Shown here one piece after another: positions 1,479 to 64,000 of a stretch of DNA of 64,000 nucleotides. Source of the DNA: Dehalococcoidia bacterium. Its GTDB lineage: Bacteria; Chloroflexota; Dehalococcoidia; Lucifugimonadales; GCA-2712585. The stretch's first letter is position 1; each line of letters opens with the position of its first letter. The position numbers and the translations under genes are program-made. The stretch is taken from positions 192,334 through 256,333 of the forward strand of contig CBDFHC010000005.1 in the NCBI GenBank assembly GCA_965247585.1, given 5' to 3'. A model generated the notes under the pieces. That model was given only the letters and a program-made list of their open reading frames with translations. It was not told the DNA's origin and searched no databases.

Positions 1479-1935
1479 GTGAGTAAATTGAACTAGAACA
1501 GCGATAGTGGGCGCCAGGGTTGGACGTGCTTTCCCACTACACCCAGATGCTCCCCTTCGACGTGCTCAGGACAAACTTACCTCACGGACGGACTCAGAAT
1601 CTAACATGCTATTGGCAGCGCACCAATACGGACGACAATAGAATGGCGGCTATCATCCATGATGGCCGGTATGGCTACCACAAAGGACTGCAAATGACAG
1701 GTTGGTGATTCCCTCCCACCCGCCCAGAAAGGTTTTTAAAAGTTTTTCTGAGGGACACCCTCAGACTCCCGGCAGAGGGGCACAGCCCCTCTGCACTCCC
1801 CCTTGTTAGGCGTGCGGAGAGCAGGGACGGTGCTATTTGCATAACAATGGCGTGACTCTCCTGGAAGCTCAACTGCTACCAGGTTGGCGCAGAGGGCGTA
1901 GAAAAAGTCAAAGACTCACAAGCTCTCAGGGGACG
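1479..1935 (+). repeat. Composite repeat block B-A-C-D filling a convergent gap
   Basis: Modules in order:
- B variant at 1479-1612.
- A unit at 1660-1803 (box from 1699, hairpin 1 at 1748-1764, hairpin 2 at 1772-1794).
- C at 1804-1880.
- D at 1893-1935, overlapping the stop codon of the RidA-like gene. Confidence 0.9.
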
Positions 1936-6047: not shown

Positions 6048-7580
6048 ATGCGTTATGACGTTATTGTGATAGGCGGAGGGTCCGGCGGAGCGACGGTGGC
6101 GGGGAGATTGTCAGAGGACGGAGAGCGTTCGGTGCTGCTGCTGGAGGCGGGGCCGGACTACCCGGAGTTCGACGACATTCCTGAGGATGTGAAGGACGGG
6201 AACGACGTAATTAGGGTATCGCTGGGGGAGCATGTGTGGCGGTGGAATGCGCGGGCCAACGAGCACCAGGACCAGCCGGTGGAGGTTATGGGAGGCAAGG
6301 TGAGCGGAGGAGGCAGCGCGGTGAACGGCACGGTGTTTATCCGGGGGCTGCACCAGGACTTCGAAGAGTGGGTGTCGCTGGGCAATAGCGAGTGGTCGTA
6401 CCAGCAGGTGCTGCCGGTGTTCCTGGGGATGGAGACGGACCTGGACTACGGGGGCGACTTTCATGGAAAGAGCGGCCCTATCCCGATCCAACGGGTGAAA
6501 CGGGAGGAGCTGGAAGCCAGCATGCGGGCGTTTACGGAGGCGTGTGTTTCGGCGGGATTCCAGGAGACCCCGGATATGAACCTGCCAGATACCACGGGGG
6601 TGGGACCGCGGCCGCTGAATAGCCTGGGGGGAACGCGAATCAGCACCAGCATAGCGTACCTGAACCCGAACCGGCACCGGCTGAACCTGACGGTGAGGGG
6701 TAACGTGCTGGCGCGGCGCATTCTTTTCGAGGGGAAACGGGCGGTGGGGGTGGAGGTGGAGAGCGGGGGCGAGGTGTACGAGCTGGAGGCGGGGGAGGTG
6801 GTGCTGAGCTGCGGGGCGATAGTTTCGCCGGCGGTGCTGATGAGGTCCGGCGTGGGGCCGCAAGAGCACTTGCGGGAGATGGGTATTCCACTGGTGCAGC
6901 ACCTGCCCGGGGTGGGGGAGAACTTGCAGGACCATCCGCTGATACCGGTATGGTTCAAGCACCGGGCCGGGCTGGGCGAGAAAGGTGCGCCGAGTCAAGT
7001 AGGGCTGCGGTACACATCGGCGGGGTCTGAGATGTTTAACGACATGTACATTAGCCCGTACCCGAATTACCTGGTGGATGGTGAATACTACACCCGGTTT
7101 CACGTGATTCTGGAGCGGCCGGCAGGGACGGGCCGGATTACGCTGGCATCAACGGACGCGAGGGAAGCGCCGAACATTGACTTCCGGTTTCTGGACGAGA
7201 GGCGGGACGTGGAGCGGATGAGGGAAGGGGTGAGGCTGGCGGCGCGGATAGGGGCGGAAGGGGCGTACGCCGGGGTGTTCTTGGAGCGAGTTGGGCCGTT
7301 GGACGAGGAGCTGGCGGAGGACGGGGCGTTGGACCAGTGGTGCCGAAGCAACGTGATTTCGGCGCCGCACGTGGCGCGGACTTGCAAGATGGGTCCGGCG
7401 GGCGACTCGATGGCGGTGGTGGACCAGTACTGCCGGGTACACGGCGTCGAGGGGCTACGGGTGGCGGACGCCTCGGTGTTCCCGACGCACGTGAGGGCGA
7501 ACCCGAATGCGACGACGATCATGATAGGCGAGCGGGTGGCGCGGTGGATCAGGGAAGGGAGCTCTGGGGGTTCCCTCTGA
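6048..7580 (+). CDS. GMC family oxidoreductase (choline dehydrogenase-like)
   Basis: Start moved to ATG 6048 (GGAGG 6 nt upstream). It has the N-terminal FAD Rossmann DVIVIGGGSGG and a length and C-terminal region typical of the GMC family. Confidence 0.85.
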   Translation: MRYDVIVIGGGSGGATVAGRLSEDGERSVLLLEAGPDYPEFDDIPEDVKDGNDVIRVSLGEHVWRWNARANEHQDQPVEVMGGKVSGGGSAVNGTVFIRGLHQDFEEWVSLGNSEWSYQQVLPVFLGMETDLDYGGDFHGKSGPIPIQRVKREELEASMRAFTEACVSAGFQETPDMNLPDTTGVGPRPLNSLGGTRISTSIAYLNPNRHRLNLTVRGNVLARRILFEGKRAVGVEVESGGEVYELEAGEVVLSCGAIVSPAVLMRSGVGPQEHLREMGIPLVQHLPGVGENLQDHPLIPVWFKHRAGLGEKGAPSQVGLRYTSAGSEMFNDMYISPYPNYLVDGEYYTRFHVILERPAGTGRITLASTDAREAPNIDFRFLDERRDVERMREGVRLAARIGAEGAYAGVFLERVGPLDEELAEDGALDQWCRSNVISAPHVARTCKMGPAGDSMAVVDQYCRVHGVEGLRVADASVFPTHVRANPNATTIMIGERVARWIREGSSGGSL

Positions 7581-8752
7581 CCCGCTAGGAGGGAACCAAG
7601 GTCCTCTGCGCTCTCTGTGGTGTTAGCGTTGGGAGAAAGCCGGGGGCTGTTTTCCAGGGCAGTCAGCCATGGCGATGGGTATGGCCACTACAGAGGGTGG
7701 CGAATCACGGGTTGGTGGTTCCCGCCGTCCCACCACAGAAGGTTTTATTGAAGTCCTGAGGGACACCCTTATCCGCCATAGAGCGTGTGAGTAAATTGGG
7801 CTGGTACAGCGCGATTGAGGGCGCGAGGGTTGGGTGTGCTCTCCCACCACACCCAGATTCTTCGATCCTCACGGGCGGACTCAGAATGACATGGTGGGGG
7901 GCGGAATGCGGTATGGGCTCGTCCTTCGAGGGCCTCAGGATGAGCGGGTTGGAGGCGCAGAGAGGGTGGCGAATCACGGGTTGGTGGTTCCCGCCGTCCC
8001 GCCCCGGATGGTTTTATTGAAGCCCTGATGGACACCCTTATCCGCCACAGAGCGTGTGAGTAAATTGGGCTGGTACAGCGTTAGAGGGCGCGAGGGTTGG
8101 GTGTGCTCTCCCACCACACCCAGATTCTTCGATCCTCATGGGCGGACTCAGAATGACATGGTGGAGGGCGGAATGCGGTATGGGCTCGTCCTTCGAGGGC
8201 CTCAGGATGAGCGGGTTGGAGGCGCAGAGAGGGTGGCGAATCACGGGTTGGTGGTTCCCGCCGTCCCGCCCCGGATGGTTTAAGAAACGGCTTTCTGATG
8301 GCCCGCTCTGGACTCCCTCTTGGTAGGCGCAGGTAGAGTACGGACGGTCCTATTTTCACAGGAATGACATGAGTAATTTCGACGCTAGACATGCGATAAA
8401 GTGGCGATGAAAGTGCGGAAGAAGTAAAAAAGTCACAGACTTACAGGCGAACCAGCAGGGAACCGCGGTACTCTGCACCCTTCTGTGGGGCAGAGGATGG
8501 AGGTAGGGTTGGATTGAACTGAGGCTGGGCGGTGATGTGGCACGGGAACGGCGCCTTTGCTACGATAGGCGCGGTTCTGAGCAACGCATGAATTGGGGGA
8601 ATCATTGATGGCGTTGGGTGTTGCTACCACAAAGGGTTGCAAATCATAGGTCGGTGACGCCCACCCACCCGCCCCAGACGGTTTTTAAAAGCTTATTTCT
8701 GAGGGGCACCCTCAGAGTCACGCCAGAGGCGGTTTCCCCTCTGGACTCTCCT
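7568..8752 (+). repeat. Repeat cluster: S remnant, three box units with two B modules, C, D, and one complete A unit
   Basis: - An S remnant overlaps the GMC stop codon (7568-7620).
- The first two of the three box units are cut inside hairpin 1 (CTGAGGGACACCCTTA|TCCGCC) and continue into B.
- C lies at 8321-8392 and D at 8420-8500.
- A complete A unit lies at 8595-8752. Confidence 0.9.
7692..8320 (+). repeat. Tandem repeat of [truncated A + B], about 268-bp period, about 2.3 copies
   Basis: AGAGGGTGGCGAATCACGGGTTGGTGG recurs at 7692, 7961 and 8228 (periods 269 and 267). Confidence 0.9.
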
Positions 8753-8802
8753 TCTTCAGGCGTTGTTCAAGGGACGAAGTTTCGATTTTCGAGGGAAGTG
8801 AT

Positions 8803-10385: not shown

Positions 10386-11556
10386 GCGGTATGGGCTCGA
10401 CTCTCCCTTCGACAAGCTCAGGATAAACTTGGCCTCAGGATGCGGATTCTCGTGGCACAAAACCCACCGGGAGGGTGTTGCTATTGCACAGGGCTGCGCC
10501 TCAAAGGTTGGTGGTTCCCACCATCCCGCCCAGGAAGGTTTTAATTCCTGAGGGACACCCTCAGACTCTCGGCAGCCACCACCCGGGTCCCCACACCCTC
10601 CTGTTTGGGCTGCAATGGAAGCCGCTGGCACAGCGAAAGAGGATGCGAGGGTTGGATGTGCTCTCCCCCCACACCCAGATTCTTCGATCTTCACGGGCGG
10701 ACTCAGAATGACATGGCGGGGGGCGGAATGCGGTATGGGCTCGTCCTCCCCTTCTACAAGCTCAGGCTGAACGGGTTGGAGGTGTAGGGTTGCCATGGCG
10801 GTGGGTGTTTCTATTGCACAGGACTGCGCCTCAAAGGTTGGTGGTTCCCACCGTCCCGCCCCGGAAGGTTTTTAGATCGATTTTCTGTGGGACACCCTCA
10901 GGCTCCCGGCAGAGAGGGTACGCCCTCTCTGGACTCTCCCCGAAAAGGTCATTATAAAAGGCTGGAGGCTCTATTTTCGAGGCAACGACATGACTCCTTT
11001 GGAAGCTCAACGCGGGGAAATGAGACGCTGAAAAAGCCGACGAAGCCAAAAACTCATAGGGTCTCAGGATGAGCGGGCTGGAGGTGTAGAGAGGGACTGC
11101 GAATCATGGGTTGGTGGTTCCCACCGTCCCGCCCAGGATGGTTTTCAGAACGTTTTTCTGAGGGACACCCTCAGACTCCCGGCAGCCACCACCCGGGTCC
11201 CCTACACCCTCCTGTTTGGGCTGCAATGGAAGTCGGCTGGCACAGCGAAAGAGGATGCGAGGGTTGGATGTTCTCTCCCCACACCCAGATTCTTCGATCT
11301 TCACGGGCGGACTCAGAATGACATGGCGGGGGGCGGAATGCGGTATGGGCTCGTCCTCCCCTTCGACAAGCTCAGGATGAGCGGGTTGGAGGAGTAGGTT
11401 TGCCATGGCGGTGGGTGTTGCTATTGCACAGGACTGCGCCTCAAAGGTTGGTGGTTCCCACCATCCCGCCCAGGAAGGTTTTTAAAACGTTTCTCTGAGG
11501 GACACCCTCAGACTCCCGGCAGGGAACCTAGGTTCCCTGCACTCTCCTGTTTGGGC
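10386..11556 (+). repeat. Repeat cluster with four A and three B modules
   Basis: Modules in order:
- B2-like at 10386-10450.
- A at 10470-10600.
- B at 10601-10785.
- A at 10786-10945 (hairpin 2 at 10910-10931).
- C+D at 10946-11090.
- A at 11090-11212.
- B at 11213-11395.
- A at 11396-11556 (hairpin 2 at 11519-11540). Confidence 0.9.
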
Positions 11557-13745: not shown

Positions 13746-13811
13746 GGTTTCTGAGGAACACCCTCAGACGCCCGGGAGCCACCACCTGGGTTCCCTGCAC
13801 TCTCCTGTTTT
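13746..13811 (+). repeat. S unit (hairpin-only half) filling a 72-bp convergent gap
   Basis: GGTTTCTGAGGAACACCCTCAGACGCCCGGGAGCCACCACCTGGGTTCCCTGCACTCTCCTGTTTT. It begins 5 nt after the TAG at 13738-13740 and ends 1 nt before the next gene's stop. Confidence 0.9.
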
Positions 13812-15984: not shown

Positions 15985-16310
15985 ACTCTGGGGCGCAGTT
16001 TCGAAACGGGTGGGAGGGTTGTTGGGGAGGGAAGCTTTTGTTTTAGGTTCTGAGGGACATCCTCGGACTCCCGGCAGCCACCACCCAGGTTCCCTGCACC
16101 TTCCTGTGGGGTTGGTGTTTCCCGCTCTCCTGCGAGGGCCACAGAGCTTGTGAGTAACCTGAGCTGGAACAGCGATAGTGGGCGCCAGGGTTGGATATGC
16201 TCTCCCCCCACACCCAGATTCTTCGATCTTCACGGGCGGACTCAGAATGCCATGGTGTGGGACGGAATGCGGTATGGGCTCGTCCTTCGAGGGCCTCAGG
16301 ATGAGCGGGA
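15985..16310 (+). repeat. Degenerate A unit, E fragment, B module
   Basis: Hairpin 1 at 16050-16066 is CTGAGGG-ACA-TCCTCGG (two G.U pairs). The tail is subtype 2. B lies at 16149-16310. Confidence 0.85.
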
Positions 16311-17760: not shown

Positions 17761-18040
17761 GCGTGTGAACAAACCGGGCTGGAACAGTGAAACTGGGCGC
17801 GAAGGTAGGATATGCTCTCCCACCACACCCAGATTCTTCGATCCTCACGGGCGGACTCGGAATCCATCATGCTGGGGGGCGGAATGCGGTATGGGCTCGT
17901 CCTTCGAGAGCCTCAGGATGAGCGGGTTGGAGGCGTAGGAGGCTTATTTTCATAGGAATTACATGACTGATACGGACTCTCCCAGTGGGACATTGCGACG
18001 TTCCATAAGCCGGAGAAGTCAAAAGCTCTTAGGCTCTCAG
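17761..18040 (+). repeat. B + C' + D modules
   Basis: B lies at 17761-17935 (the ATTCT/GGAAT stem has a U.G pair). GGAGGCTTATTTTCATAGGAATTACATGA follows at 17936-17990, and D lies at 18010-18040. Confidence 0.9.
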
Positions 18041-18174: not shown

Positions 18175-19272
18175 ATGACCGGCAACAACTCGGGCCAGAA
18201 CAGGTCAAGCTTCAGGATTGCCGTTATCCGAGGAGACGGGATAGGGGTGGACGTGATTGAGGAGGGGATAAAGGCGCTGCGGGCGCTGGGTAAGAGGTAC
18301 GAGCTGGCCTGGGAGTTCGAGGAGTTCCCGTGGGGCTCCGACTACTATTTCAGCCACGGGGAGATGATGCCGAAGGACGGGGTGGAGACGCTACGAGGAT
18401 TCGACGCCATTTACTTCGGGGCGGTGGGGCACCCGGAGATACAGGACCACATGACGCTGAACAATTTGCTGTTGCCTATACGCCGGGGGTTCGACCAGTA
18501 CGTGTGCCTCCGGCCGAGCAAGCTGCATAAGGGGATAGAGTCGCCGCTGCGAGGTAAGGGCGCAGGGGATATAGACATGGCGGTGATCCGGGAGAACACG
18601 GAGGGGGAATACGCGAACGTTGGGGGGTTCCACTACTCGGGGCTGCCGCAGGAGATGGCGGCGCAGACGGCGATTTTCACGCGTTTCGGTTGCGAGCGCG
18701 TGATGAGGTTCGCGTTCGAGCTGGCGCGAAGGCGGGGCGGGAGGAAGAAGGTGACGTCTATCACCAAGTCGAACGCGCTGGGGTACGGGATGGTGCTGTG
18801 GGACCGGGTGTTCCAGGAGGTGGCAGCAGGGTACCCGGACGTTGCCACGGACTCGTTGCTGATAGACGCGGCGTGCATGGACTTCATCCGCCGGCCGGAG
18901 GTGTTCGACGTGGTGGTGGCGAGCAATCTGTTTGGGGATATTCTGACGGATATAGCGGCGATCATTACAGGGAGCATGGGGATGGCGGCCAGTGGGAATA
19001 TTGACCCGGAGAAGAGGTACCCTTCGATGTTCGAGCCGGTACACGGCAGCGCGCCGGACATTGCGGGGAAGGGGGTGGCTAACCCGATGGCGGCGATACT
19101 TTCCGGGGCGATGATGGTGCGGCACCTGGGACATGAGGAAGCGGCGACGGCGCTGGAAGGGGCGGTGCTGGGGGTGCTAGGGGAGGGGAGGCAACTGACG
19201 CCAGACCTGGGCGGAAGCGCCAGGACGACGGAGGTAGGAGACGCGGTGGTGGAGGGGATTAGCAAACTTTGA
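18175..19272 (+). CDS. Tartrate / D-malate dehydrogenase-like enzyme (isocitrate-isopropylmalate dehydrogenase superfamily)
   Basis: 365-aa ORF with RIAVIRGDGIG and NLFGDILTD. The stop codon TGA (19270-19272) lies inside a repeat unit. Confidence 0.8.
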   Translation: MTGNNSGQNRSSFRIAVIRGDGIGVDVIEEGIKALRALGKRYELAWEFEEFPWGSDYYFSHGEMMPKDGVETLRGFDAIYFGAVGHPEIQDHMTLNNLLLPIRRGFDQYVCLRPSKLHKGIESPLRGKGAGDIDMAVIRENTEGEYANVGGFHYSGLPQEMAAQTAIFTRFGCERVMRFAFELARRRGGRKKVTSITKSNALGYGMVLWDRVFQEVAAGYPDVATDSLLIDAACMDFIRRPEVFDVVVASNLFGDILTDIAAIITGSMGMAASGNIDPEKRYPSMFEPVHGSAPDIAGKGVANPMAAILSGAMMVRHLGHEEAATALEGAVLGVLGEGRQLTPDLGGSARTTEVGDAVVEGISKL

Positions 19273-19713
19273 GGGACACCCTCAGGCTTCCGGCAGAGAG
19301 GGTATTCCCCCGCTGGACTCCCCGTTTTGCGGAGCCTTGACGCACCTTTGGCGCTATTTCCTGGGTGATCAGATTTGGCGCTGCGTGTAACTACTGCAAG
19401 GGATTGCGAATAGAAGGTTGGTGGCGCCCACCGTCCCGCCCAGGAAGGTTTAGATAGTAAGATTTGAGGGACACCCTCAGACTCCCGTCAAAGGGCTCTG
19501 CCCTTCTGCACTCCCCGTTTTGCGGAGCCTTGACGCACCTTTGGCGCTATTTCCTGGGTGATCAGATTTGGCGTTGCGTGTAACTACTGCAAGGGATTGC
19601 GGATAGAAGGTTGGTGGCGCCCACCGTCCCGCCCAGGAAGGTTTAGAGAGTAAGATTTGAGGGACACCCTCAGACTTCCGCCAGAGAGGGTATTCCCCCG
19701 CTGGACTCCCCCC
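19268..19713 (+). repeat. Tandem A units, about 194-bp period, about 2.3 copies, starting within the upstream stop codon
   Basis: TTTGAGGGACACCCTCAG occurs at 19268, 19463 and 19656. Boxes GGTTGGTGGCGCCCACCGTCCCGCC occur at about 19417 and 19609. Confidence 0.9.
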
Positions 19714-20263: not shown

Positions 20264-20685
20264 ACTGGAAATCTAAGGTTGGTGGTAGAAGTGGACGCGA
20301 GAGCAGGACACGCTCCACCCAGATTCCTCGATCTTCAAGGACGGACTCGGAATGTATCATGTTAGCGTCCAGCACCAGGGAGGATGAAAAACCAGGTTTG
20401 GAATCCGAAGCGGGCGCCGAGGCGGGACTTGCTCTCCCCCCGAACTCAGATTCTTCGATCCTCACGGGCGGACTCAGAATGACATAGTGGGGGGCGGAAT
20501 GCGGTTTGGGCTCGTCCTTCGAGAGCCTCAGGATGAGCGGATTGGAGGCGAAGATGGGGCCACAAATCACAGGCTGGTGGTTCCCACCATCCCTCCCAGA
20601 AAGGTTTTTAAAGTTTTTCTGAGGGACACCGGCAGACTCCCGGCAGCCACCACCCAGGTTCTCTGCACTCTCCTGTATGGTTGGA
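20264..20685 (+). repeat. Box fragment, B1 variant, F, B, A
   Basis: The B1 variant carries the compensated stem ATTCC (20323-20327) / GGAAT (20349-20353). F lies at 20361-20440, B at 20441-20545, and A at 20555-20685. Confidence 0.9.
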
Positions 20686-21851: not shown

Positions 21852-21974
21852 ATCAATTGTTACGATTCCTATTATGGTGAAAGGCTGCAATGGTTATCTT
21901 AGCATATCAGGAAATGGGTGCGGAATTTCTCCGGACTCACTGGTTGGGCATAGAGGTCGTGAGCAGTCATGTTC

Positions 21975-23118
21975 AGTGGAATCAGGGACGGTGATGGGTG
22001 TTGCCAGTGCAAAGGGCTGCGAATCACAGGTTGGTGGTTCGGACCATCCCGCCCAGGAAGGTTTTTAACGGTTTTTTCTGAGGGGTCACCCTCAGACTCC
22101 CGGCAGAGGGGCGCAGCCCCTCTACACTCCCCCCAGGTTCATGTACTTCAAGGTTGACTTTCCCGCTCTCCTTCGAGGGCCTCAGGATGGGCGGGAAAGG
22201 AAGGGCTGAGGGGTTATTTGCGGGAGGATCAGGCAAGGTGATGGGTGTTACCAGTGCAAAGGGCTGCGAATCACAGGTTGGTGGTTCCCACCATCCCGCC
22301 CAGGAAGGTGTTTAACGGTTTTTTCTGAGGGTCACCCTCAGACTCCCGGCAGAGGGGCGCAGCCCCTCTGCACTCCCCCTAGGTTGATGTACTTCAAGGT
22401 TGACTTTCCCGCTCTCCTTCGAGGGCCTAAGGATGAGCGGGTTGGATAGGCAGAGGGGCTATTCGCGGGAGGATCAGGCAAGGTGATGGGTGTTGCCGGG
22501 ACAAAGGGTTGCGAATCACAGGTTGGTGGTTCGGACCATCCCGCCCAGGAAGGTCTTTAACGGTTTTTTCTGAGGGGTCACCCTCAGACTCCCGGCAGAG
22601 GGGCGCAGCCCCTCTGCACTCCCCCTAGCTGGATGTACTTCAAGGTTGACTTTCCCGCTCTCCTTCAAGGGCCTCAGGATGGGCGGGTTCGATAGGCAGA
22701 GGGGCTATTTGCAGGAGGATCAGGCAAGGTGATGGGTGTTACCAGTGCAAAGGGCTGCGAATCACAGGTTGGTGGTTCCCACCATCCCGCCCAGGAAGGT
22801 TTTTAACGGTTTGTTCTGAGGGTCACCCTCAGACTCCCGGCAGAGGGGCTGCGCCCCTCTGCACTCCCCCCAGGTTGATGTACTTCAAGGTTGACTTTCC
22901 CGCTCTCCTTCGAGGGCCTAAGGATGAGCGGGTTGGATAGGCAGAGGGGCTATTCGCGGGAGGATCAGGCAAGGTGATGGGTGTTGCCGGAACAAAGGGT
23001 TGCGAATCACAGGTTGGTGGTTCCGACCATCCCGCCCAGGAAGGTTTTTAACGGTTTGTTCTGAGGGTCACCCTCAGACTCCCGGCAGAGGGGCTGCGCC
23101 CCTCTGCACTCCCCCTTG
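21975..23118 (+). repeat. Tandem array of [A + E] units, about 246-bp period, 4.6 copies, with a 491-bp higher-order (dimer) periodicity
   Basis: GGTGATGGGTGTT occurs at 21990, 22237, 22482, 22728 and 22973. Alternate units share diagnostic variants (see the finding on this array). Confidence 0.95.
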
Positions 23119-23160
23119 GTGGCTGAGGTGGTGGTGGACGAAACGCCAGGGGGTTGGGGG

Positions 23161-24201
23161 TTACCAGAAGGGGGTGGTGTCTTCCGAGGGGCTGTTGGTG
23201 AGGCGTTTCTGGTTGGAGCCGTCAGAGTCCATGGAGAAGATCTCGCCGCCCTCGTCGCCGCTCTCGGAGTAGGAGACGAAGGCGATGCGCTTGCCGTTGG
23301 GAGACCAGACGGGGTGGATATCGCGGCGATCGTTGCGGGTCAGGCGGAGCTGGTCGCTGCCGTCTGACTTCATGGTGTAGAGCTCTAGGTTACCGTGCTG
23401 ATTGGAGACATAGGCGATGCGCTTCCCATCAGGGGACCATGAGACGGGAAAGGCCCCATCCACCCGGGTGACCAACCCAGTCTCCTCATTGGACGACCGG
23501 TTCACCAGGTGAATCTCGCTACCTTCCTCACCATCTAGGTAGAAGGCGATGCCCTCACCCTTGGGTGACCAGACGGGACTTCGGGCCGGGGCTGTGGTAA
23601 GACGGATCAGATCTACACCGTCCGGATTCCGGACGTAGATTCCAGGCGACTCTCCATCAAACAGGGCGTAGGCCAGCCACTCACCGTCAGGGGACCAAGA
23701 GCCCAGGTCTTCCTGCTCTGTTGTTTTGGTGACGGAGATTATTTCATTTTCTTCGCCGTCCAGCTTCAAGACGAAGATATCGGGCTGGCCCTCCATATCT
23801 GAGGTGAAGGCGATGCGCTTTCCGTCCGGGGACCAGCGGTGCTGCCAAACGGTGCCACGGGTGGAAGGTTCGGTGATGACGTTGGTGCCATCGGCGTCGG
23901 CGATTTTAAGGACAGTGCGGTCCGACTCCTCCTGGAGAAAGGCGACCCTGCGGCGGTCCGGGGACCAGCGTGGCCGGGAATCCGCGGCCAGGTGGGAAGT
24001 GAAGCGGGCGGCGTTGGCGCCGTCGGCGTCCATGGTGTAGATCTCGGAGTTGCCGTTGCGGTCTGAGACGAAGATGATGCGCTTCTCGGAGCGTCCGCAG
24101 GCGGAGAGGACGGTCAGCGCCAGGCCCAGGATGAAGAGAGTGAAGAGGGCTTTGGCGGCAGCGGCGGGCCCGGGTGTTGTTTGCAGGGGTGAGGTTGGCA
24201 T
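23161..24201 (-). CDS. PD40 (TolB-like beta-propeller) repeat lipoprotein
   Basis: Signal peptide with lipobox LSAC-G, followed by repeated WSPDG.xIAF blades. Confidence 0.85.
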   Translation of the reverse strand: MPTSPLQTTPGPAAAAKALFTLFILGLALTVLSACGRSEKRIIFVSDRNGNSEIYTMDADGANAARFTSHLAADSRPRWSPDRRRVAFLQEESDRTVLKIADADGTNVITEPSTRGTVWQHRWSPDGKRIAFTSDMEGQPDIFVLKLDGEENEIISVTKTTEQEDLGSWSPDGEWLAYALFDGESPGIYVRNPDGVDLIRLTTAPARSPVWSPKGEGIAFYLDGEEGSEIHLVNRSSNEETGLVTRVDGAFPVSWSPDGKRIAYVSNQHGNLELYTMKSDGSDQLRLTRNDRRDIHPVWSPNGKRIAFVSYSESGDEGGEIFSMDSDGSNQKRLTNSPSEDTTPFW

Positions 24202-24273: not shown

Positions 24274-24732
24274 GGGGAGCGAATCACTCACGCCCGCTTC
24301 CAGAGAGGTAGTGCCCTGTCTGGAGTCTTCCTGGTGAGTGTCCTTCAAGGGAGGAGGTTTCGATCGGCGGAGCGATCAGGGATGGTGTTGGGTATAGCCG
24401 GTGCAAAGGACAGCAAATCACAGGTTGGTGCTTCCCACCATCCCGCCCCGGAAGGTTTTTAAGGTTTATTTCTGAGGGACACCCTCAGACTCCCGCAAGA
24501 GGGGGGAAGCCCCCTCTTGACTCCCCCTTGATGGGGGTCAGTCAAGGAAAGATGGTTCTCTAGTCCGGGTATTTAGCCATGACGACGGGTGCGGTTCCTG
24601 CAGACGACAGCAAATCACAGGTTGGTGCTTCCCGCCATCCCGCCCCGGAAGGTTTTTAAGGTTTATTTCTGAGGGACACCCTCAGACTCCCGGCAGCGCC
24701 ACCACCCAGGTTTCCCGCACTCTCCTGTTTGG
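24274..24732 (+). repeat. Degenerate S plus two A units (197-bp period)
   Basis: CAGCAAATCACAGGTTGGTGCTTCCC occurs at 24411 and 24608. Hairpin 2 at 24496-24519 is CAAGAGGGGG/CCCCCTCTTG. Confidence 0.9.
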
Positions 24733-33716: not shown

Positions 33717-34080
33717 AAGCGGTATGGGCTCGTCCTTCGAGGTCCTCAGGATGAGCGGGTTGGAAGGGCAGAAGGGCTGCAAGTCACAGGTTGGTGGTGC
33801 CCAGCCGCCCGCTATGTAAGGTTTTATGAAGTTATTTCTGAGGGAGACCCTCAGACTCCCGGCAGGGAACCTGGGTTCCCTCAACTCTCCTGTGAAGCTG
33901 AGACCGACACGGCCAGGGATGAAAATCAGAGGTGAGGCTTCCCTAATTCCGTGGAGAGTCTCAGAGCTCGAGAGTAAATTGAACTGGCACAGCGGTAGTG
34001 GGCACAGGGGTTGGATGTGCTCTCGCCTCCCTACCAGATTCCTCGATCCTCACGCACGGACTCGGAATGACGTGGTGGTG
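33717..34080 (+). repeat. B2, A, F-like, B1
   Basis: The A unit at 33771-33890 has hairpin 2 GGGAACC-TG-GGTTCCC. B1 has the compensated stem ATTCC (34038-34042) / GGAAT (34064-34068). Confidence 0.9.
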
Positions 34081-34133
34081 AACGGGCGGACTTCCTGAAG
34101 CCGTTTGGACGGGCTTCTTGACATGAATTAGAC

Positions 34134-36590: not shown

Positions 36591-37337
36591 CTGAGGGAGT
36601 TGCCGCCCTCTGACCTCCCCGAAAGTGGGCGTGGTTCTAGAGACACAGTTTCTAATTGCGGAGCAATCAGCCAAGGGAATGGGCATTGCTAGCATAAAGG
36701 TTTGCGAATCAGAGGTTGGTGGTTCCAACCATCCCGCCCCCCCAGGTTTTTAAAGTTTTTCTGAGGGACACCCTAATACTCCCGGCAGCACCAACCAGGT
36801 TCCCTGCACCCTCCTGTGGGGTTGGTGCCAGGCGGAGGGAGGGAGTCCGGTATGGGCTCGTCCTTCGAGGGCCTCAGGATGAGCGGGTTGGAGGATCAGA
36901 GAGGGTTGCGAATCACGGGTTGGTTGTAAAAGCGGAGGCGAGGGCAGGACACGCTCATCCCGGCGCCACCCAGATTCTTCGATCCTGACGGGCGGACTCG
37001 GAATCGATCATGTTGGCGTCCAGCACCAGGGAGGATGAAAATCAGGATTGGAATCCAAAGCGGTCGCCGCGGTAGGACTTGCTCTCCCCCCGCACCCAGA
37101 TTCTTCGATCCTCACGGGCGGACTCAGGATGAGCGGGTTGGAGGATCAGAGAGGGTTGCGAATCACGGGTTGGTTGTAAAAGCAGAGGCGAGGGCGGGAC
37201 ACGCTCATCCCCGCTCCACCCAGATTCTTCGATCCTGACGGGCGGACTCGGAATGACATGACGCTCTTGGAGGCTCACCTGCCACCAAGTTCGCGCTGAA
37301 GGTGCGGGTGAAGTCAAGAACTCACAGCCTCTCAGGG
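36591..37337 (+). repeat. Repeat cluster: S-like hairpin, A, B2, duplicated 125-bp segment, F, D
   Basis: - CTGAGGGAGTTGCCGCCCTCTGACCTCCCC lies at 36591-36620, 10 nt after the stop codon.
- A lies at 36650-36822.
- The segment 36868-36990 is repeated at 37113-37235.
- D lies at 37263-37337. Confidence 0.9.
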
Positions 37338-43786: not shown

Positions 43787-44200
43787 CAGCCTGATCCGCC
43801 ACAGGCGGACCGGCAGAGGGGCTGTGCTCCTCTGGACTCCCTCTTTTAAGGGAGGTGGAAATGTAGGCAGTGCGGTTTTCGAGGCGATCAGCCACGGGGG
43901 TGGGTGTCACCGCTTTTAGGGGCTCCAAATCTAAGGTTGGTTGACGGCAAGTTTTCAAACCGGGAGAATCGCGGATGCCGGTTGCGACCGGGACCATAGG
44001 GATGAAGGTCGAGGCTGGGATGGAGGGCAGTGGTCGCCGCGGTAGGACTTGCTCTCCCCCCACACCCAGAGTCTTCGATCCTCACGCACGGACTCAGAAT
44101 GACATGGTGGGGGGCGGAATGCGGTATGGGCTCGTCCTTCGAGAGCCTAAGGATGAGCGGGTTGGAGGCGTAGGAGGCTTATTTTCATAGGAGTGACAAG
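43787..44200 (+). repeat. S variant, truncated box, F, B, C'
   Basis: The hairpin 1 stem is replaced but the loop is kept: CCGCC-ACA-GGCGG (43796-43808). B lies at 44049-44170. Confidence 0.85.
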
Positions 44201-49746: not shown

Positions 49747-49800
49747 TCCGAGGGACACCCTCGGACTCCCGGCAAAGGGGCGCTGCTCCTCTGCACTCCC
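49747..49800 (+). repeat. S unit with compensated hairpin 1
   Basis: CCGAGGG-ACA-CCCTCGG (49748-49764; T-A changed to C-G), then ACTCCCGGCAAAGGGGCGCTGCTCCTCTGCACTCCC. It begins 2 nt after the TAA. Confidence 0.9.
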
Positions 49801-51047: not shown

Positions 51048-51506
51048 GAGTTTAAAGGAATTGATTTTTGAGGGACACCCTCAAACTCCCGGCAGGGGGC
51101 TGTGCCCCTCTGCACTCCCTCTCTCAAGGGATTCCCAAGGGGCGAGGATCATATTCCCACGGCAATCGCACATGCCGGTTGCGACCGGCAGCAATGGGGA
51201 TGAAAATCCAATGTCGATGATACAAGTAGACGCGAAGGTGGAGAATGCTCTCCCCCCACACCCAGATTCTTCGATCCTCACGGGCCGACTCAGAATGACG
51301 TGATGGTGGACGGGTGCTTGCCGACGCTGACGGGACAGACTGCATGACGTGAGGGAGGGTTGACTGGCGAAGCGTTAGCCGCTCCTAAGGGTTGCAAATC
51401 GAAGGTTGGTGGTTCCCACTATCCCGCCCAGGAAGGTTTTTAAAGTTTTTCTGAGGGACACCCTCAGGCTCCCGCCAGCAAGGGTGCTCCCTCTCTGGAC
51501 TCTTCC
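51048..51506 (+). repeat. S, F, B1, A
   Basis: S at 51048-51120, F at 51160-51245, B1 at 51246-51305, A at 51365-51506. Confidence 0.9.
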
Positions 51507-56029: not shown

Positions 56030-56637
56030 TTCCATTTGCGGGGCAATCAGTCATGGCGAAGGGTGTTGGAGCACCACCAGGGATTAACAGCCGAAGAAGG
56101 CCCGTCGATAGCCTCAGGATGAGCGGGTAAGGAATGGGGTCTCTATTGCAGGATCCGTACAGCGTTATTTGTGAGGCAAACAGTAATGGCGATGGGCATG
56201 GCCTGTGCGAAGGACCGCAAATCACAGGTTGGTGGTTCCCACCATCCCGCCCAGAAAGGTCTTATTTCTGAGGGACACCTTCAGAATCCCGGCAGCCACC
56301 ACCCAGGTTCCCTGCACTCTCTTTTGTTGGGTGACCAGCTATGGAGATAGGTGTCACTGCCGGTGACGAAAATTCAGGTATATTGATAAAGGTAGAACGT
56401 GCTCTCCCCCCGCACCCAGATTCTTCGATCCTCACGGGGGGACTCAGAATGCCATTGTGGGGGGCGGGATGCGGTATGGGCTCGTCCTTCGAGAGCCTCA
56501 GGATGAGCGGGTTGGAGGCATAGGAGGCTTATTTTCATAGGAATGACATGTCGGAGAGTTGAAGTGGGGCTGGAGTGACGGGGGTATGGCTTTGGAAGCA
56601 TTATGGGCTCCTATTTTCGGGATGATCAGGAGAAGCG
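56030..56637 (+). repeat. Lead fragment + E end, A, F-like, B, C', lead fragment
   Basis: A at 56165-56325, B at 56399-56515, C' at 56516-56550. The lead-like GGGCTCCTATTTTCGGGATGATCAGGAGAAGCG (56605-56637) abuts the next ATG. Confidence 0.9.
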
Positions 56638-63056: not shown

Positions 63057-64000
63057 GGGACACCTCCCGACGGTGACGAAGGGCTGGCGGTTAAGCCGGT
63101 TGGTGTTACATGGTGAGAGGGTTACGGGTCACGGGTTGGTGGTGGCCGCTCTCCTTCGAGAGCCTCGGGATAAGCGGGAAAGGGAGGGAATCCGGTCTGC
63201 TTTCGGGGGCGATCAGCCATGGAGATGGTTTGGTGAGCGCGAAGGATTGCGAATCACAGGTTGGCGGTTCCCACGGTCCCGCCCCGGAAGGTTTTAAGTT
63301 CTGAGGGACACCCTCAGTCTCCCGGCAGAAGGGCTGCGCCCCTTTGCACTCCCTCTCTTTGGCAGGCGGCCCTAAGAGGAAGCAATGTTCCTTTCCTTTG
63401 GGGCGATCAGCCTTGGTGGATGGTTTGGTGACGGCGAAGGATTGCGAGTCACGGGTTGGCGGTGGAAGTAGACTCTAAGGTGGGACATGCTCTCCCTCCA
63501 CACCCAGATTCTTCGATCCTCACGGGCGGACTCAGAATGACATGACTTATGCGGAGGCTGAATGCGGGACAATGAGACGCTGAAAAGCCGACGAAGCCAA
63601 AAACTCACAGGGTTTCAGACTCCCTGCAGAAGGGCTGTGCCCCTCTGCACTCTCCCTCTTAGGCAGATAGCCCTAAGAGGAGGCAATGTTCCTTTTCGTT
63701 GGGGCGATCAGCCTTGGTGGATGGTTTGGTGACCGCGAAGGATTGGGAGTCACGGGTTGGCGGTTCCCACCGTCCCGCCCCGGAAGGTTTTAATTTCTGA
63801 GGGATACCCTCAGTCTCCCGGCAGAAGGGCTGCGCCCCTCTGCACTCCCTCTTTGGCAGGTGGCCCTAAGAGGAGGCAATGTTCCTTTCCTTTGGGGCGA
63901 TCAGCCTTGGTGGATGGTTTGGTGACGGCGAAGGATTGCGAGTCACGGGTTGGCGGTTCCCACGGTCCCGCCCTGGAAGGTTTTAAGTTCTGAGGGACAC
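63054..64000 (+). repeat. Repeat cluster running to the window end
   Basis: - An S remnant overlaps the stop codon (63054-63075).
- Box+E lies at 63110-63185.
- A lies at 63195-63350.
- A interrupted by B1+D lies at 63395-63656.
- A lies at 63690-63850.
- A lies at 63880-64000, truncated by the window end. Confidence 0.9.

What the first reader, a model, noticed from the sequence alone, without database searches (positions are those of the whole stretch)
7857..7887. The B module has a stem that covaries through a G.U intermediate
In the conserved B1 core (CACCCAGATTCTTCGATCCTCACGGGCGGACTCAGAATGACATG; about 17 copies), ATTCT pairs with AGAAT across a 21-nt loop.
- Majority copies have the T-A pair, for example 7857-7861 with 7883-7887.
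- Three copies have T.G: 17833-37 with 17859-63; 36974-78 with 37000-04; 37224-28 with 37250-54.
- Two copies have C-G: ATTCC/GGAAT at 20323-27 with 20349-53, and at 34038-42 with 34064-68.
- I saw no C.A combination.
The adjacent B2/E stem GCTCGTC/GATGAGC also carries a G.U that is valid only on the + strand.
Basis: seen in the sequence. Interest (0 to 1): 0.65.

Follow-up and report, generated by a model that had tools for sequence, protein, structure and literature searches.

The report
Strand-locked mosaic intergenic repeat, not proven RNA
The flagged "covarying stem" sits in one module of a very abundant mosaic intergenic repeat of a deep-sea SAR202 bacterium; the base-pair swap is real, but ordinary linkage between two sequence variants explains it equally well, and the repeats follow the replication direction rather than gene direction, which points to a DNA-level element rather than a structured RNA.

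Summary
The interpretation does not hold up.

- **More copies:** with 23 further copies from related SAR202 contigs the pair reads T-A 22, C-G 11, T.G 5 and C.A 2. The "no C.A" rule fails outside the window.
- **Only one pair varies:** one of five pairs covaries. The other pairs show two G.A mismatches, one A.C mismatch and one destroyed stem.
- **Linkage explains it:** the T/C column is tied as strongly, or more strongly, to two columns it cannot pair with. This indicates two linked core haplotypes.
- **Weak stem:** the stem is less stable than shuffled sequence, as RNA and as DNA.
- **No RNA signals:** there is no Rfam hit and no recurrent promoter.
- **Orientation:** B is one of five modules (A, C, X, B, E). 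All 144 module copies in the window lie on the + strand, although genes lie on both strands. In 13 of 13 external loci the module orientation matches the sign of the GC skew of the non-repeat DNA.

Best reading: a replication-polar, BIME/REP-like mosaic DNA repeat. An RNA role is not excluded, but nothing supports it.

The parts
7857..7861 (+). 5' arm ATTCT of the flagged B1 stem
   Evidence: exact bases; pairs with 7883-7887 across a 21-nt loop
7883..7887 (+). 3' arm AGAAT of the flagged B1 stem
   Evidence: in the MFE only when the 44-nt core is folded alone (-5.8 kcal/mol, z +0.82)
7816..7906 (+). B module copy (T-A), in array A-X-B-E-A-X-B-E-A-A-C between two + genes
8082..8173 (+). B module copy (T-A)
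1504..1617 (+). B module copy with a 23-nt insertion in the loop and ATGCT (G.A mismatch)
10636..10728 (+). B module copy (T-A)
11248..11338 (+). B module copy (T-A)
16175..16267 (+). B module copy (T-A); its ortholog in L035 (96% identical locus) has AGAAC (A.C mismatch)
17790..17884 (+). B module copy (T.G); the copy at the same site in L043 has a destroyed stem (GTGCT/GGATA)
20288..20372 (+). B module copy (C-G), subfamily ii, in a divergent (-+) intergenic region
20407..20499 (+). B module copy (T-A)
33995..34085 (+). B module copy (C-G), CCCTACCAG subfamily; a near-identical copy lies at a non-orthologous site in L043 (8496)
36928..37023 (+). B module copy (T.G), subfamily ii
37057..37144 (+). 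B/E chimera (AGGAT: U.G at the third pair); the B core runs straight into the E 3' arm
37178..37264 (+). B module copy (T.G), subfamily ii
44028..44119 (+). B module copy with AGTCT (G.A mismatch)
51224..51313 (+). B module copy (T-A) between two - strand genes, so antisense to local transcription
56388..56469 (+). B module copy (T-A)
63465..63552 (+). B module copy (T-A)
7917..7945 (+). E hairpin GCTCGTCCT..AGGATGAGC (9 bp with a fixed G.T, plus 3 bp); a paralog of the B stem
7775..7811 (+). X module preceding B
7663..7746 (+). A module (one of 51 copies, all +)
8696..8750 (+). C module with two hairpins (one of 48 copies, all +)
21970..23198 (+). Tandem array of five A-C-E units (245-246 nt) between two - strand genes

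Best explanation
B is one module of a modular, non-coding, DNA-level repeat family (modules A, C, X, B, E) that fills the intergenic regions of this SAR202 (Chloroflexota) chromosome.

**Anatomy.** Units have a common tail, A(30-87)+C, and one of two heads, A(1-30) or X-B-E. Units are amplified in tandem and exchanged between loci by recombination at shared modules.

**Polarity.** The sense strand of every copy is the G-rich strand. That strand is presumably the leading strand, which is also the template of the lagging strand. Gene direction makes no difference.

**Origin of the stem.** The ATTCT/AGAAT inverted repeat in B is a weak relic of the E-type hairpin (TCCT..AGGA).

**The apparent covariation.** The T-A and C-G states belong to two linked core haplotypes. 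Mixed states arise at the frequencies expected from the strand-biased mutation spectrum, with no detectable selection for pairing.

**Inferred mechanism, not shown.** The polarity comes from a replication-coupled process. The most likely one is strand-specific mobilisation of single-stranded DNA at the fork, as in IS200/IS605, followed by local tandem amplification. I give this specific step about 0.3. The DNA-level, non-RNA reading as a whole gets the confidence below.
For: **Organism and context**
- The window's own protein sits on a 1.33-Mb contig. The nearest named relative is SAR202 bacterium AD-804-J14.
- That syntenic locus (L044) has no repeats, short spacers, 46% GC and no skew.

**Module census and grammar**
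- Counts are A 51, C 48, E 22, B 17 and X 6, and 144 of 144 are on the + strand.
- Genes are about 29 on + and 18 on -, checked by Pfam and codon-position GC.
- Modules occur in ++, -+, +- and -- spacers.

**Strand asymmetry**
- GC3 skew is +0.46 in + genes and -0.54 in - genes on their coding strand.
- In 13 of 13 external loci (12 contigs, 77 modules) the orientation equals the sign of the skew of the non-repeat DNA.

**Turnover and mosaicism**
- Loci 91-97% identical to the window carry different module sets at the same spacers.
- There is a B/E chimera at 37057.
- A near-identical subfamily copy lies at a non-orthologous site in L043.

**The stem itself**
- One of five pairs varies.
- The linkage controls do not single out the pairing partner.
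- Both intermediates are present.
- A>G is 1.7 times T>C per site on the + strand.
- The stem is weaker than shuffled sequence.

**No RNA signals**
- Rfam gives nothing at gathering scores, and nothing at E <= 1 in the 7581-8802 spacer, which holds all five modules.
- There are no tRNA-like genes.
- No recurrent promoter-like site lies in the modules.
- Folding z-scores of whole units are +0.04, -0.35 and -1.5.

**Literature**
- IS200/IS605 elements insert in the orientation that corresponds to the lagging-strand template (PMC5027513).
Against: - No transposase of any strand-specific kind was found. Twenty of the roughly 47 window genes were scanned against Pfam and all hits were metabolic. 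The relatives carry only DDE and rve-type IS.
- Element ends, target sites and duplications could not be defined.
- The alternation T-A/C-G at exactly a pairing position has a prior chance of only a few percent (my estimate). B and E differ by a compensated pair (TTCT/AGAA against TCCT/AGGA). Some selection for a hairpin, in DNA or RNA, therefore remains possible.
- Leading-strand orientation is also what strongly transcribed RNA genes show.
- No expression data could be consulted.
- Only 40 copies were available. External copies were retrieved with a pattern that fixes much of the loop, which favours little-diverged copies.
Confidence: 0.6

Rival explanations
1. B, or the X-B-E unit of about 190 nt, is a structured RNA transcribed from the + strand. 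The ATTCT/AGAAT stem is kept by selection and changes from U-A to C-G through G.U.
For: - 95.7% of stem cells are paired, and RNAalifold recovers the stem.
- The innermost pair reads T-A 22, C-G 11, T.G 5 and C.A only 2.
- The tree simulation gives P of about 0.008 at the fitted rate.
- The E stem carries a G.T that pairs only on the + strand.
- All copies lie on the presumed leading strand, as highly expressed RNA genes do.
Against: - Only one pair varies. The consensus energy is -3.5 kcal/mol and the covariation term is -0.09.
- Non-pairing columns 29 and 93 are linked to column 55 as strongly or more strongly.
- C.A, A.C and G.A states and one destroyed stem all exist.
- The stem is weaker than shuffles, and it is absent from the MFE fold of the whole unit.
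- There is no Rfam hit and no promoter-like site.
- Copies lie antisense within - strand gene runs.
- Mismatches in the C-module hairpins show no strand preference, 8 G.T to 8 A.C.
Confidence: 0.12
2. The hairpins, including the B stem and the E stem with its G.T or bulged T, are functional in single-stranded DNA. They would be recognition structures for a strand-specific enzyme, such as an HUH/Y1 transposase or a RAYT-like protein, acting on the lagging-strand template. On this view the pair alternation is real selection, but at the DNA level.
For: - Polarity is strict with respect to GC skew.
- The G.T is kept in 20 E copies and replaced by a bulged T in 8.
- The hairpin design is kept between the paralogs B and E.
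- Hairpin 2 of module C has many fully compensated variants.
- IS200/IS605 elements show this orientation bias and use an extrahelical T in their hairpins (PMC5027513).
Against: - As ssDNA the B stem is only -1.5 kcal/mol and is weaker than shuffles.
- No Y1 or RAYT gene was seen in the window or in related loci.
- No conserved flanking tetranucleotide or defined ends were found.
- Mismatch statistics fit neutrality.
Confidence: 0.2
3. No strand-specific mobility is involved. The repeats spread by tandem amplification, unequal crossing-over and ectopic gene conversion, all of which preserve orientation. Copies in the opposite orientation are purged because recombination between inverted copies would invert chromosome segments in a genome with extreme strand asymmetry. 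Inversions symmetric about the origin keep the polarity. A variant of this view is that the modules carry a polar DNA signal that is itself selected.
For: - There are tandem arrays with higher-order periodicity.
- Whole module blocks are exchanged at orthologous spacers.
- Chimeras form at shared motifs.
- The extreme GC3 skew makes inversions costly.
- Repeat positions and orientations in bacteria appear constrained by replication-dependent organisation (PMC9297083).
Against: - It does not explain how new, unlinked spacers are seeded. Solo C modules occur at 13748 and 49747, and a near-identical B subfamily copy lies at a non-orthologous site in L043.
- Purging would have to be complete, because no reverse copy appears among more than 220 modules.
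Confidence: 0.25

Closest known systems
BIMEs / REP elements of enterobacteria and REPINs of Pseudomonas (mobilised by RAYT transposases)
   Same: High-copy, extragenic, built from a small set of hairpin-forming modules in mosaic combinations. Stems carry conserved non-Watson-Crick positions. The content of orthologous spacers turns over quickly.
   Different: REPs are 20-40 nt long and typically occur as inverted pairs. Here the modules are 37-96 nt, units are 190-330 nt, and every copy is direct and on one strand. No RAYT gene was seen, and the GTAG-type 5' motif was not tested.
IS200/IS605 family and its non-autonomous derivatives (PATEs)
   Same: Orientation is tied to the direction of replication (PMC5027513). 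Hairpins with a wobble or an extrahelical T occur. There are no terminal inverted repeats.
   Different: No TnpA or TnpB gene was found. No defined left and right ends or target tetranucleotide were found. The copy density and tandem arrays are far beyond what is described for PATEs.
BOX elements of Streptococcus pneumoniae and RIMEs of rhizobia (modular intergenic mosaic elements)
   Same: Modular grammar with a variable number of internal modules, an intergenic location, and predicted hairpins that have prompted RNA-level hypotheses.
   Different: To my knowledge BOX and RIME occur in both orientations and are not tied to replication. There is no sequence similarity.
MIRU-type tandem intergenic repeats of Mycobacterium
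   Same: Direct tandem arrays in intergenic regions whose copy number differs between strains.
   Different: MIRUs are 40-100 bp, single-module, and oriented with the operon. Here the units are composite and independent of gene direction.
Multi-copy structured RNAs in Rfam (for example HEARO/omega RNA of IscB/TnpB elements)
   Same: Many dispersed copies of a 100-300-nt non-coding unit containing hairpins.
   Different: No match to any of 4227 Rfam models, even at E <= 1 in the 7581-8802 spacer that holds all five modules. There is no significant covariation.

Membership tests
   One of five pairs varies. Its association is equalled by non-pairing column 93 and exceeded by column 29. It ranks 26th of 1081 column pairs.
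   Core z = +0.82 as RNA. Whole units give z = +0.04, -0.35 and -1.5.
   No sigma-70-like site recurs in the modules, and copies occur in all four gene contexts. The consensus scan is crude and no expression data were available.
   No Rfam hit at gathering scores across the window, and none at E <= 1 in the 7581-8802 spacer.
REP / BIME / REPIN (RAYT-associated) | Short imperfect palindromes arranged as inverted pairs | tested here: not met
   All 144 modules are direct and on one strand. Only intra-module hairpins were found.
REP / BIME / REPIN (RAYT-associated) | A RAYT (Y1 HUH) gene in the same genome | not testable with these tools
   Only 64 kb of a contig of at least 1.33 Mb is available. 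None was seen among the 20 window proteins scanned.
REP / BIME / REPIN (RAYT-associated) | Mosaic combination of a few extragenic modules at high copy number | tested here: met
   Five modules with a clear grammar, and 31% of the window is intergenic.
IS200/IS605-derived non-autonomous elements | Insertion orientation biased with respect to replication | tested here: met
   144 of 144 modules in the window, and 13 of 13 external loci, follow the sign of the GC skew. Taking GC skew as a proxy for replication direction is an assumption.
IS200/IS605-derived non-autonomous elements | Subterminal hairpins at both ends, with a conserved cleavage or target tetranucleotide | tested here: inconclusive
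   Hairpins exist in A, C and E, but the element ends could not be fixed and no conserved flank was seen in eight solo A-C units.
DDE-type MITE | Terminal inverted repeats and target-site duplications | tested here: not met
   No terminal inverted repeats flank the units, and no duplications appear at solo units.
Protein-coding repeat | A conserved reading frame across copies | tested here: not met
   Copies differ by 1- and 2-nt indels next to the core. The open frame differs between copies. The translated unit finds only two called ORFs among 5.8 billion proteins.

The most novel reading that the evidence does not exclude
This SAR202 lineage carries a previously undescribed, replication-polar mosaic repeat system. 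It has five modules, fills about 30% of the sequence, and every copy lies on the G-rich strand. Its spread, or its retention, would be mechanistically coupled to the replication fork. That coupling could be single-strand mobilisation by an unidentified enzyme, or a polar DNA function comparable to KOPS or Chi. The system co-occurs with an exceptionally strong strand compositional asymmetry.
Probability: 0.35. Interest if true: 0.65.

Novelty: new variant of a known kind. Interest (0 to 1): 0.35.

Why it matters
- **A caution for covariation claims.** In high-copy repeat families, apparent covariation at a single pair can come from linked subfamily variants plus a strand-biased mutation spectrum. 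It needs a control against non-pairing columns before it is read as RNA structure.
- **A new feature of an important clade.** SAR202 bacteria are abundant in the dark ocean and are known almost entirely from genomes. A repeat system that fills a third of a chromosomal region and is strictly locked to the replication strand would be a new feature of their genome biology. A syntenic relative lacks it entirely.
- **Practical consequences.** Such a system is a possible handle on replication-coupled mobility and a source of assembly and gene-calling artefacts.

Tried and rejected
- **Coding repeat:** rejected. Frames differ between copies, indels of 1-2 nt lie beside the core, and the translated unit found only two called ORFs.
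- **Known RNA family or tRNA-like origin:** nothing in Rfam or ARAGORN.
- **Promoter or terminator function of B:** no recurrent sites. Only module A has a weak hairpin followed by a T run.
- **MITE with terminal inverted repeats:** none found.
- **Ends and target sites from solo A-C units:** no sharp boundary or duplication.
- **Genome-collection scan with the loop pattern:** 32 of 34 hits were chance matches in unrelated taxa. Only one Dehalococcoidia MAG contig carried B.
- **Metagenome scan:** eight short contigs only.
- **Walking beyond the window:** this failed because the longest-ORF start did not match the called gene.
- **Orthologous-copy decay test (W 17790 against L043 5250):** not clean, because the L043 copy has a different 3' module.
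- **Tree-based simulation of independent evolution:** it gives P from 0.084 to below 0.001 depending on the rate, and 0.008 at the fitted rate. I do not rely on it. The mosaic history violates the single tree, and non-pairing column 93 has the identical table.
- **Skew flip inside L046:** the only module beyond it is a 23-nt palindromic hit whose strand is ambiguous.
- **Preference of B for sites upstream of + genes:** 14 of 16 copies against 66% expected by spacer length. By my rough binomial estimate, not run as a test, this is not significant.

Full report
**1. The observation**

The window has 62% G+C and a + strand GC skew of 0.1-0.3 along its whole length. The 44-nt B1 core occurs 11 times with at most three mismatches, where none is expected by chance. 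nhmmer finds 17 copies, all on the + strand.

- T-A at 7857/7883.
- T.G at 17833, 36974 and 37224.
- C-G at 20323 and 34038.

Three further window copies depart elsewhere in the stem:
- ATGCT at 1502, a G.A mismatch plus a 23-nt insertion in the loop.
- AGTCT at 44025, a G.A mismatch.
- AGGAT at 37055, a U.G pair.

**2. Where the window comes from**

The genes are ordinary metabolic genes: luciferase-like monooxygenases, GMC oxidoreductase, amidases, IlvC and others. The window's own aminotransferase lies on a 1.33-Mb contig. Its nearest named relative is SAR202 cluster bacterium AD-804-J14, at 76% amino-acid identity.

That genome is syntenic over more than 20 kb (L044). It has short spacers, 46% G+C, no skew and none of the repeats.

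B copies were found only in a few places:
- one Dehalococcoidia MAG contig (L015, L032);
- eight deep-sea metagenome contigs (L035-L042);
- three contigs of one ENA sample (L043, L045, L046).

Several of these are 91-97% identical to parts of the window.

**3. The stem with more copies**

Forty copies are now available. The innermost pair reads T-A 22, C-G 11, T.G 5 and C.A 2. The C.A copies are L037 176-273 and L042 950-1048.

| Measure | Result |
|---|---|
| Pairs that vary on both sides | 1 of 5 |
| RNAalifold consensus energy | -3.54 kcal/mol |
| RNAalifold covariation term | -0.09 |
| Core alone as RNA | -5.8 kcal/mol, z = +0.82 |
| Core alone as DNA | -1.5 kcal/mol, z = +1.26 |

The other pairs are invariant or broken. 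Breaks are two G.A mismatches, one A.C mismatch, and a destroyed stem in L043 5250. The stem is absent from the MFE fold of the whole unit.

*Is the association more than relatedness?* Shuffling columns says yes, 0 of 500 shuffles, but that control ignores relatedness.
- A neighbour-joining tree built without the stem columns puts the C-G copies in two clades.
- Column 55 (T/C) has the same 2x2 table with non-pairing column 93 (G/A in the loop) as with its partner, column 101.
- Column 55 is more strongly tied to column 29.
- The pair ranks 26th of 1081 binarised column pairs and 276th of 1035 by mutual information.
- A simulation of independent evolution on the tree gives P of about 0.008 at the rate that reproduces the observed seven to eight changes. 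Column 93 has the same table and the same number of changes, so I infer it would score much the same; the test was not run on that pair.

I therefore read C55-A93-G101 and T55-G93-A101 as two linked core haplotypes. The mixed states would come from point mutation or exchange between them. The relative from sample ERZ26167216 carries mostly the C-G haplotype, in 7 of 8 copies.

*Do the intermediates favour pairing?* Excluding the multiply substituted L043 copy, wobble and mismatch cells produced by transitions in the stem number about 6 and 3. Deviations of about 140 module copies from their consensus show that A>G is 1.7 times as frequent per site as T>C on the + strand. That predicts about 63:37 with no selection.

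In an unbiased hairpin scan of the other modules, G.T outnumbers A.C by 24 to 9 overall. The count is 8 to 8 in module C, which has the strongest hairpins. Most of the excess in modules A and E probably reflects inherited positions such as the fixed G.T of the E stem; this was checked directly only for that pair.

*The E stem.* The E-stem pair is G.T in 20 of 29 copies. The G is deleted, leaving a bulged T, in 8, and the pair is A-T in 1. There is no double change. It is one inherited character.

**4. What B is part of**

Iterative nhmmer defines five modules in the window:

| Module | Copies |
|---|---|
| A | 51 |
| C | 48 |
| E | 22 |
| B | 17 |
| X | 6 |

- **Grammar.** Spacers read, for example, AXBEAXBEAAC, EACBEACEACBEAC and ACEACEACEACEAC. 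After E, module A always starts near its position 30. Units therefore share a tail, A(30-87)+C, and carry one of two heads, A(1-30) or X-B-E.
- **B is a paralog of E.** Both have a GCTC..TCC arm, TTCGA, a loop, CTCAG and a 3' arm. B has an insertion and a longer loop. The copy at 37057 is a B/E chimera.
- **Share of the sequence.** About 31% of the window is intergenic, nearly all of it these repeats.
- **Turnover.** Orthologous spacers in loci 91-97% identical to the window hold different module sets. A near-identical B subfamily copy sits at non-orthologous sites in the window (33995) and in L043 (8496).

**5. Orientation**

This is the most informative result.
- All 144 module hits in the window are on the + strand.
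- Genes lie on both strands, about 29 on + and 18 on -.
- Modules occur in co-directional, divergent, convergent and minus-minus spacers. These include a 1.2-kb array and a B copy that are antisense to - strand genes.
- The + strand is G-rich whatever the gene direction. GC3 skew is +0.46 in + genes and -0.54 on the coding strand of - genes.
- In all 13 external loci (12 contigs, 77 modules) the modules are uniformly oriented, and the orientation equals the sign of the GC skew of the non-repeat DNA. Six loci are negative and seven positive.

Orientation thus follows the strand asymmetry normally set by replication, not transcription. If the G-rich strand is the leading strand, which is the usual rule and fits the 62% gene bias, the sense strand of the repeats is the template of the lagging strand.

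**6. Signals of an RNA**

None was found.
- No Rfam hit at gathering scores across the window, and none at E <= 1 in the 7581-8802 spacer that holds all five modules.
- No tRNA-like genes.
- No recurrent promoter-like site.
- Folding z-scores of whole units are +0.04, -0.35 and -1.5.
- No conserved reading frame.

**7. Mechanism**

*Shown:*
- a modular repeat with rapid turnover and mosaic exchange;
- strict polarity with the compositional strand asymmetry;
- no selection for pairing detectable in the B stem.

*Inferred:* the polarity reflects a replication-coupled process. The best-documented precedent is single-strand transposition of IS200/IS605 elements into the lagging-strand template, which produces exactly such an orientation bias (PMC5027513).

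*Alternative:* spread by recombination alone, with purging of reverse copies because they would promote inversions (compare PMC9297083).

No candidate enzyme and no element ends were identified.

**8. Verdict**

- The covariation claim is not distinguishable from haplotype linkage and neutral, strand-biased mutation.
- The RNA interpretation lacks any independent support, though it is not excluded.
- The underlying entity is a BIME/REP-like mosaic repeat with an unusual strict replication polarity. I found no description of it in the searches made.

Noticed in passing
window 1-64000: Extreme strand compositional asymmetry. GC3 skew is +0.46 in + strand genes and -0.54 on the coding strand of - strand genes, and whole-window GC skew is 0.1-0.3. 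The syntenic SAR202 AD-804-J14 locus (L044) has 46% GC, no skew and no repeats.
   Followed up: partly
window 21970-23198: Tandem array of five A-C-E units of 245-246 nt with a 491-nt higher-order periodicity (alternate units are 97% identical). It lies between two - strand genes, so it is antisense to them.
   Followed up: partly
window, C modules, e.g. 1745-1800, 11494-11546, 19268-19322, 24469-24525: Hairpin 2 of module C has many different, fully compensated stem sequences (CAGAGGGGC/GCCCCTCTG, CAGGGAACC/GGTTCCCTG, CAGAGAGGG/CCCTCTCTG, AAGAGGGGGG/CCCCCTCTT). This is a much richer case of compensated change than the B stem. In a DNA palindrome it could also arise by template-switch correction.
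   Followed up: no
window 13748-13804 and 49747-49800: Solo C modules fill the short spacers between convergent genes, the position where a bidirectional terminator or an mRNA-stabilising hairpin would sit. No T run follows the hairpins.
   Followed up: no
window A modules, e.g. 7993-8022: The 3' end of module A has a weak hairpin (CCRTCC..GGAWGG) followed by TTTTT(A). This is terminator-like on the + strand, and it is present in most of the 51 copies whatever the gene context.
   Followed up: partly
L043 6755-7170: A foreign segment of about 420 nt is inserted inside hairpin 1 of a C module (CTGAGGGACACC|...) in the 91%-identical relative.
   Followed up: no
L046 about 8600: The GC skew changes sign (+0.2 to -0.25) immediately after an IS3-family insertion (7099-8585). 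This is an inversion breakpoint, an assembly chimera or a replication landmark. Only an ambiguous 23-nt palindromic module hit lies beyond it.
   Followed up: partly
L043 3398-3852; L045 10001-10417; L046 1393-1752: Gene callers have called ORFs with no Pfam hit (51-138 aa; P0121, P0122) that overlap the repeat arrays and are probably spurious. The repeats will inflate hypothetical-protein counts in these genomes.
   Followed up: partly
window 7917-7945 and 28 other E copies: The G.T of the E stem is either kept (20 copies) or the G is deleted to leave a bulged T (8 copies). It is converted to A-T only once. This is reminiscent of the extrahelical T used by IS200/IS605 transposases.
   Followed up: partly
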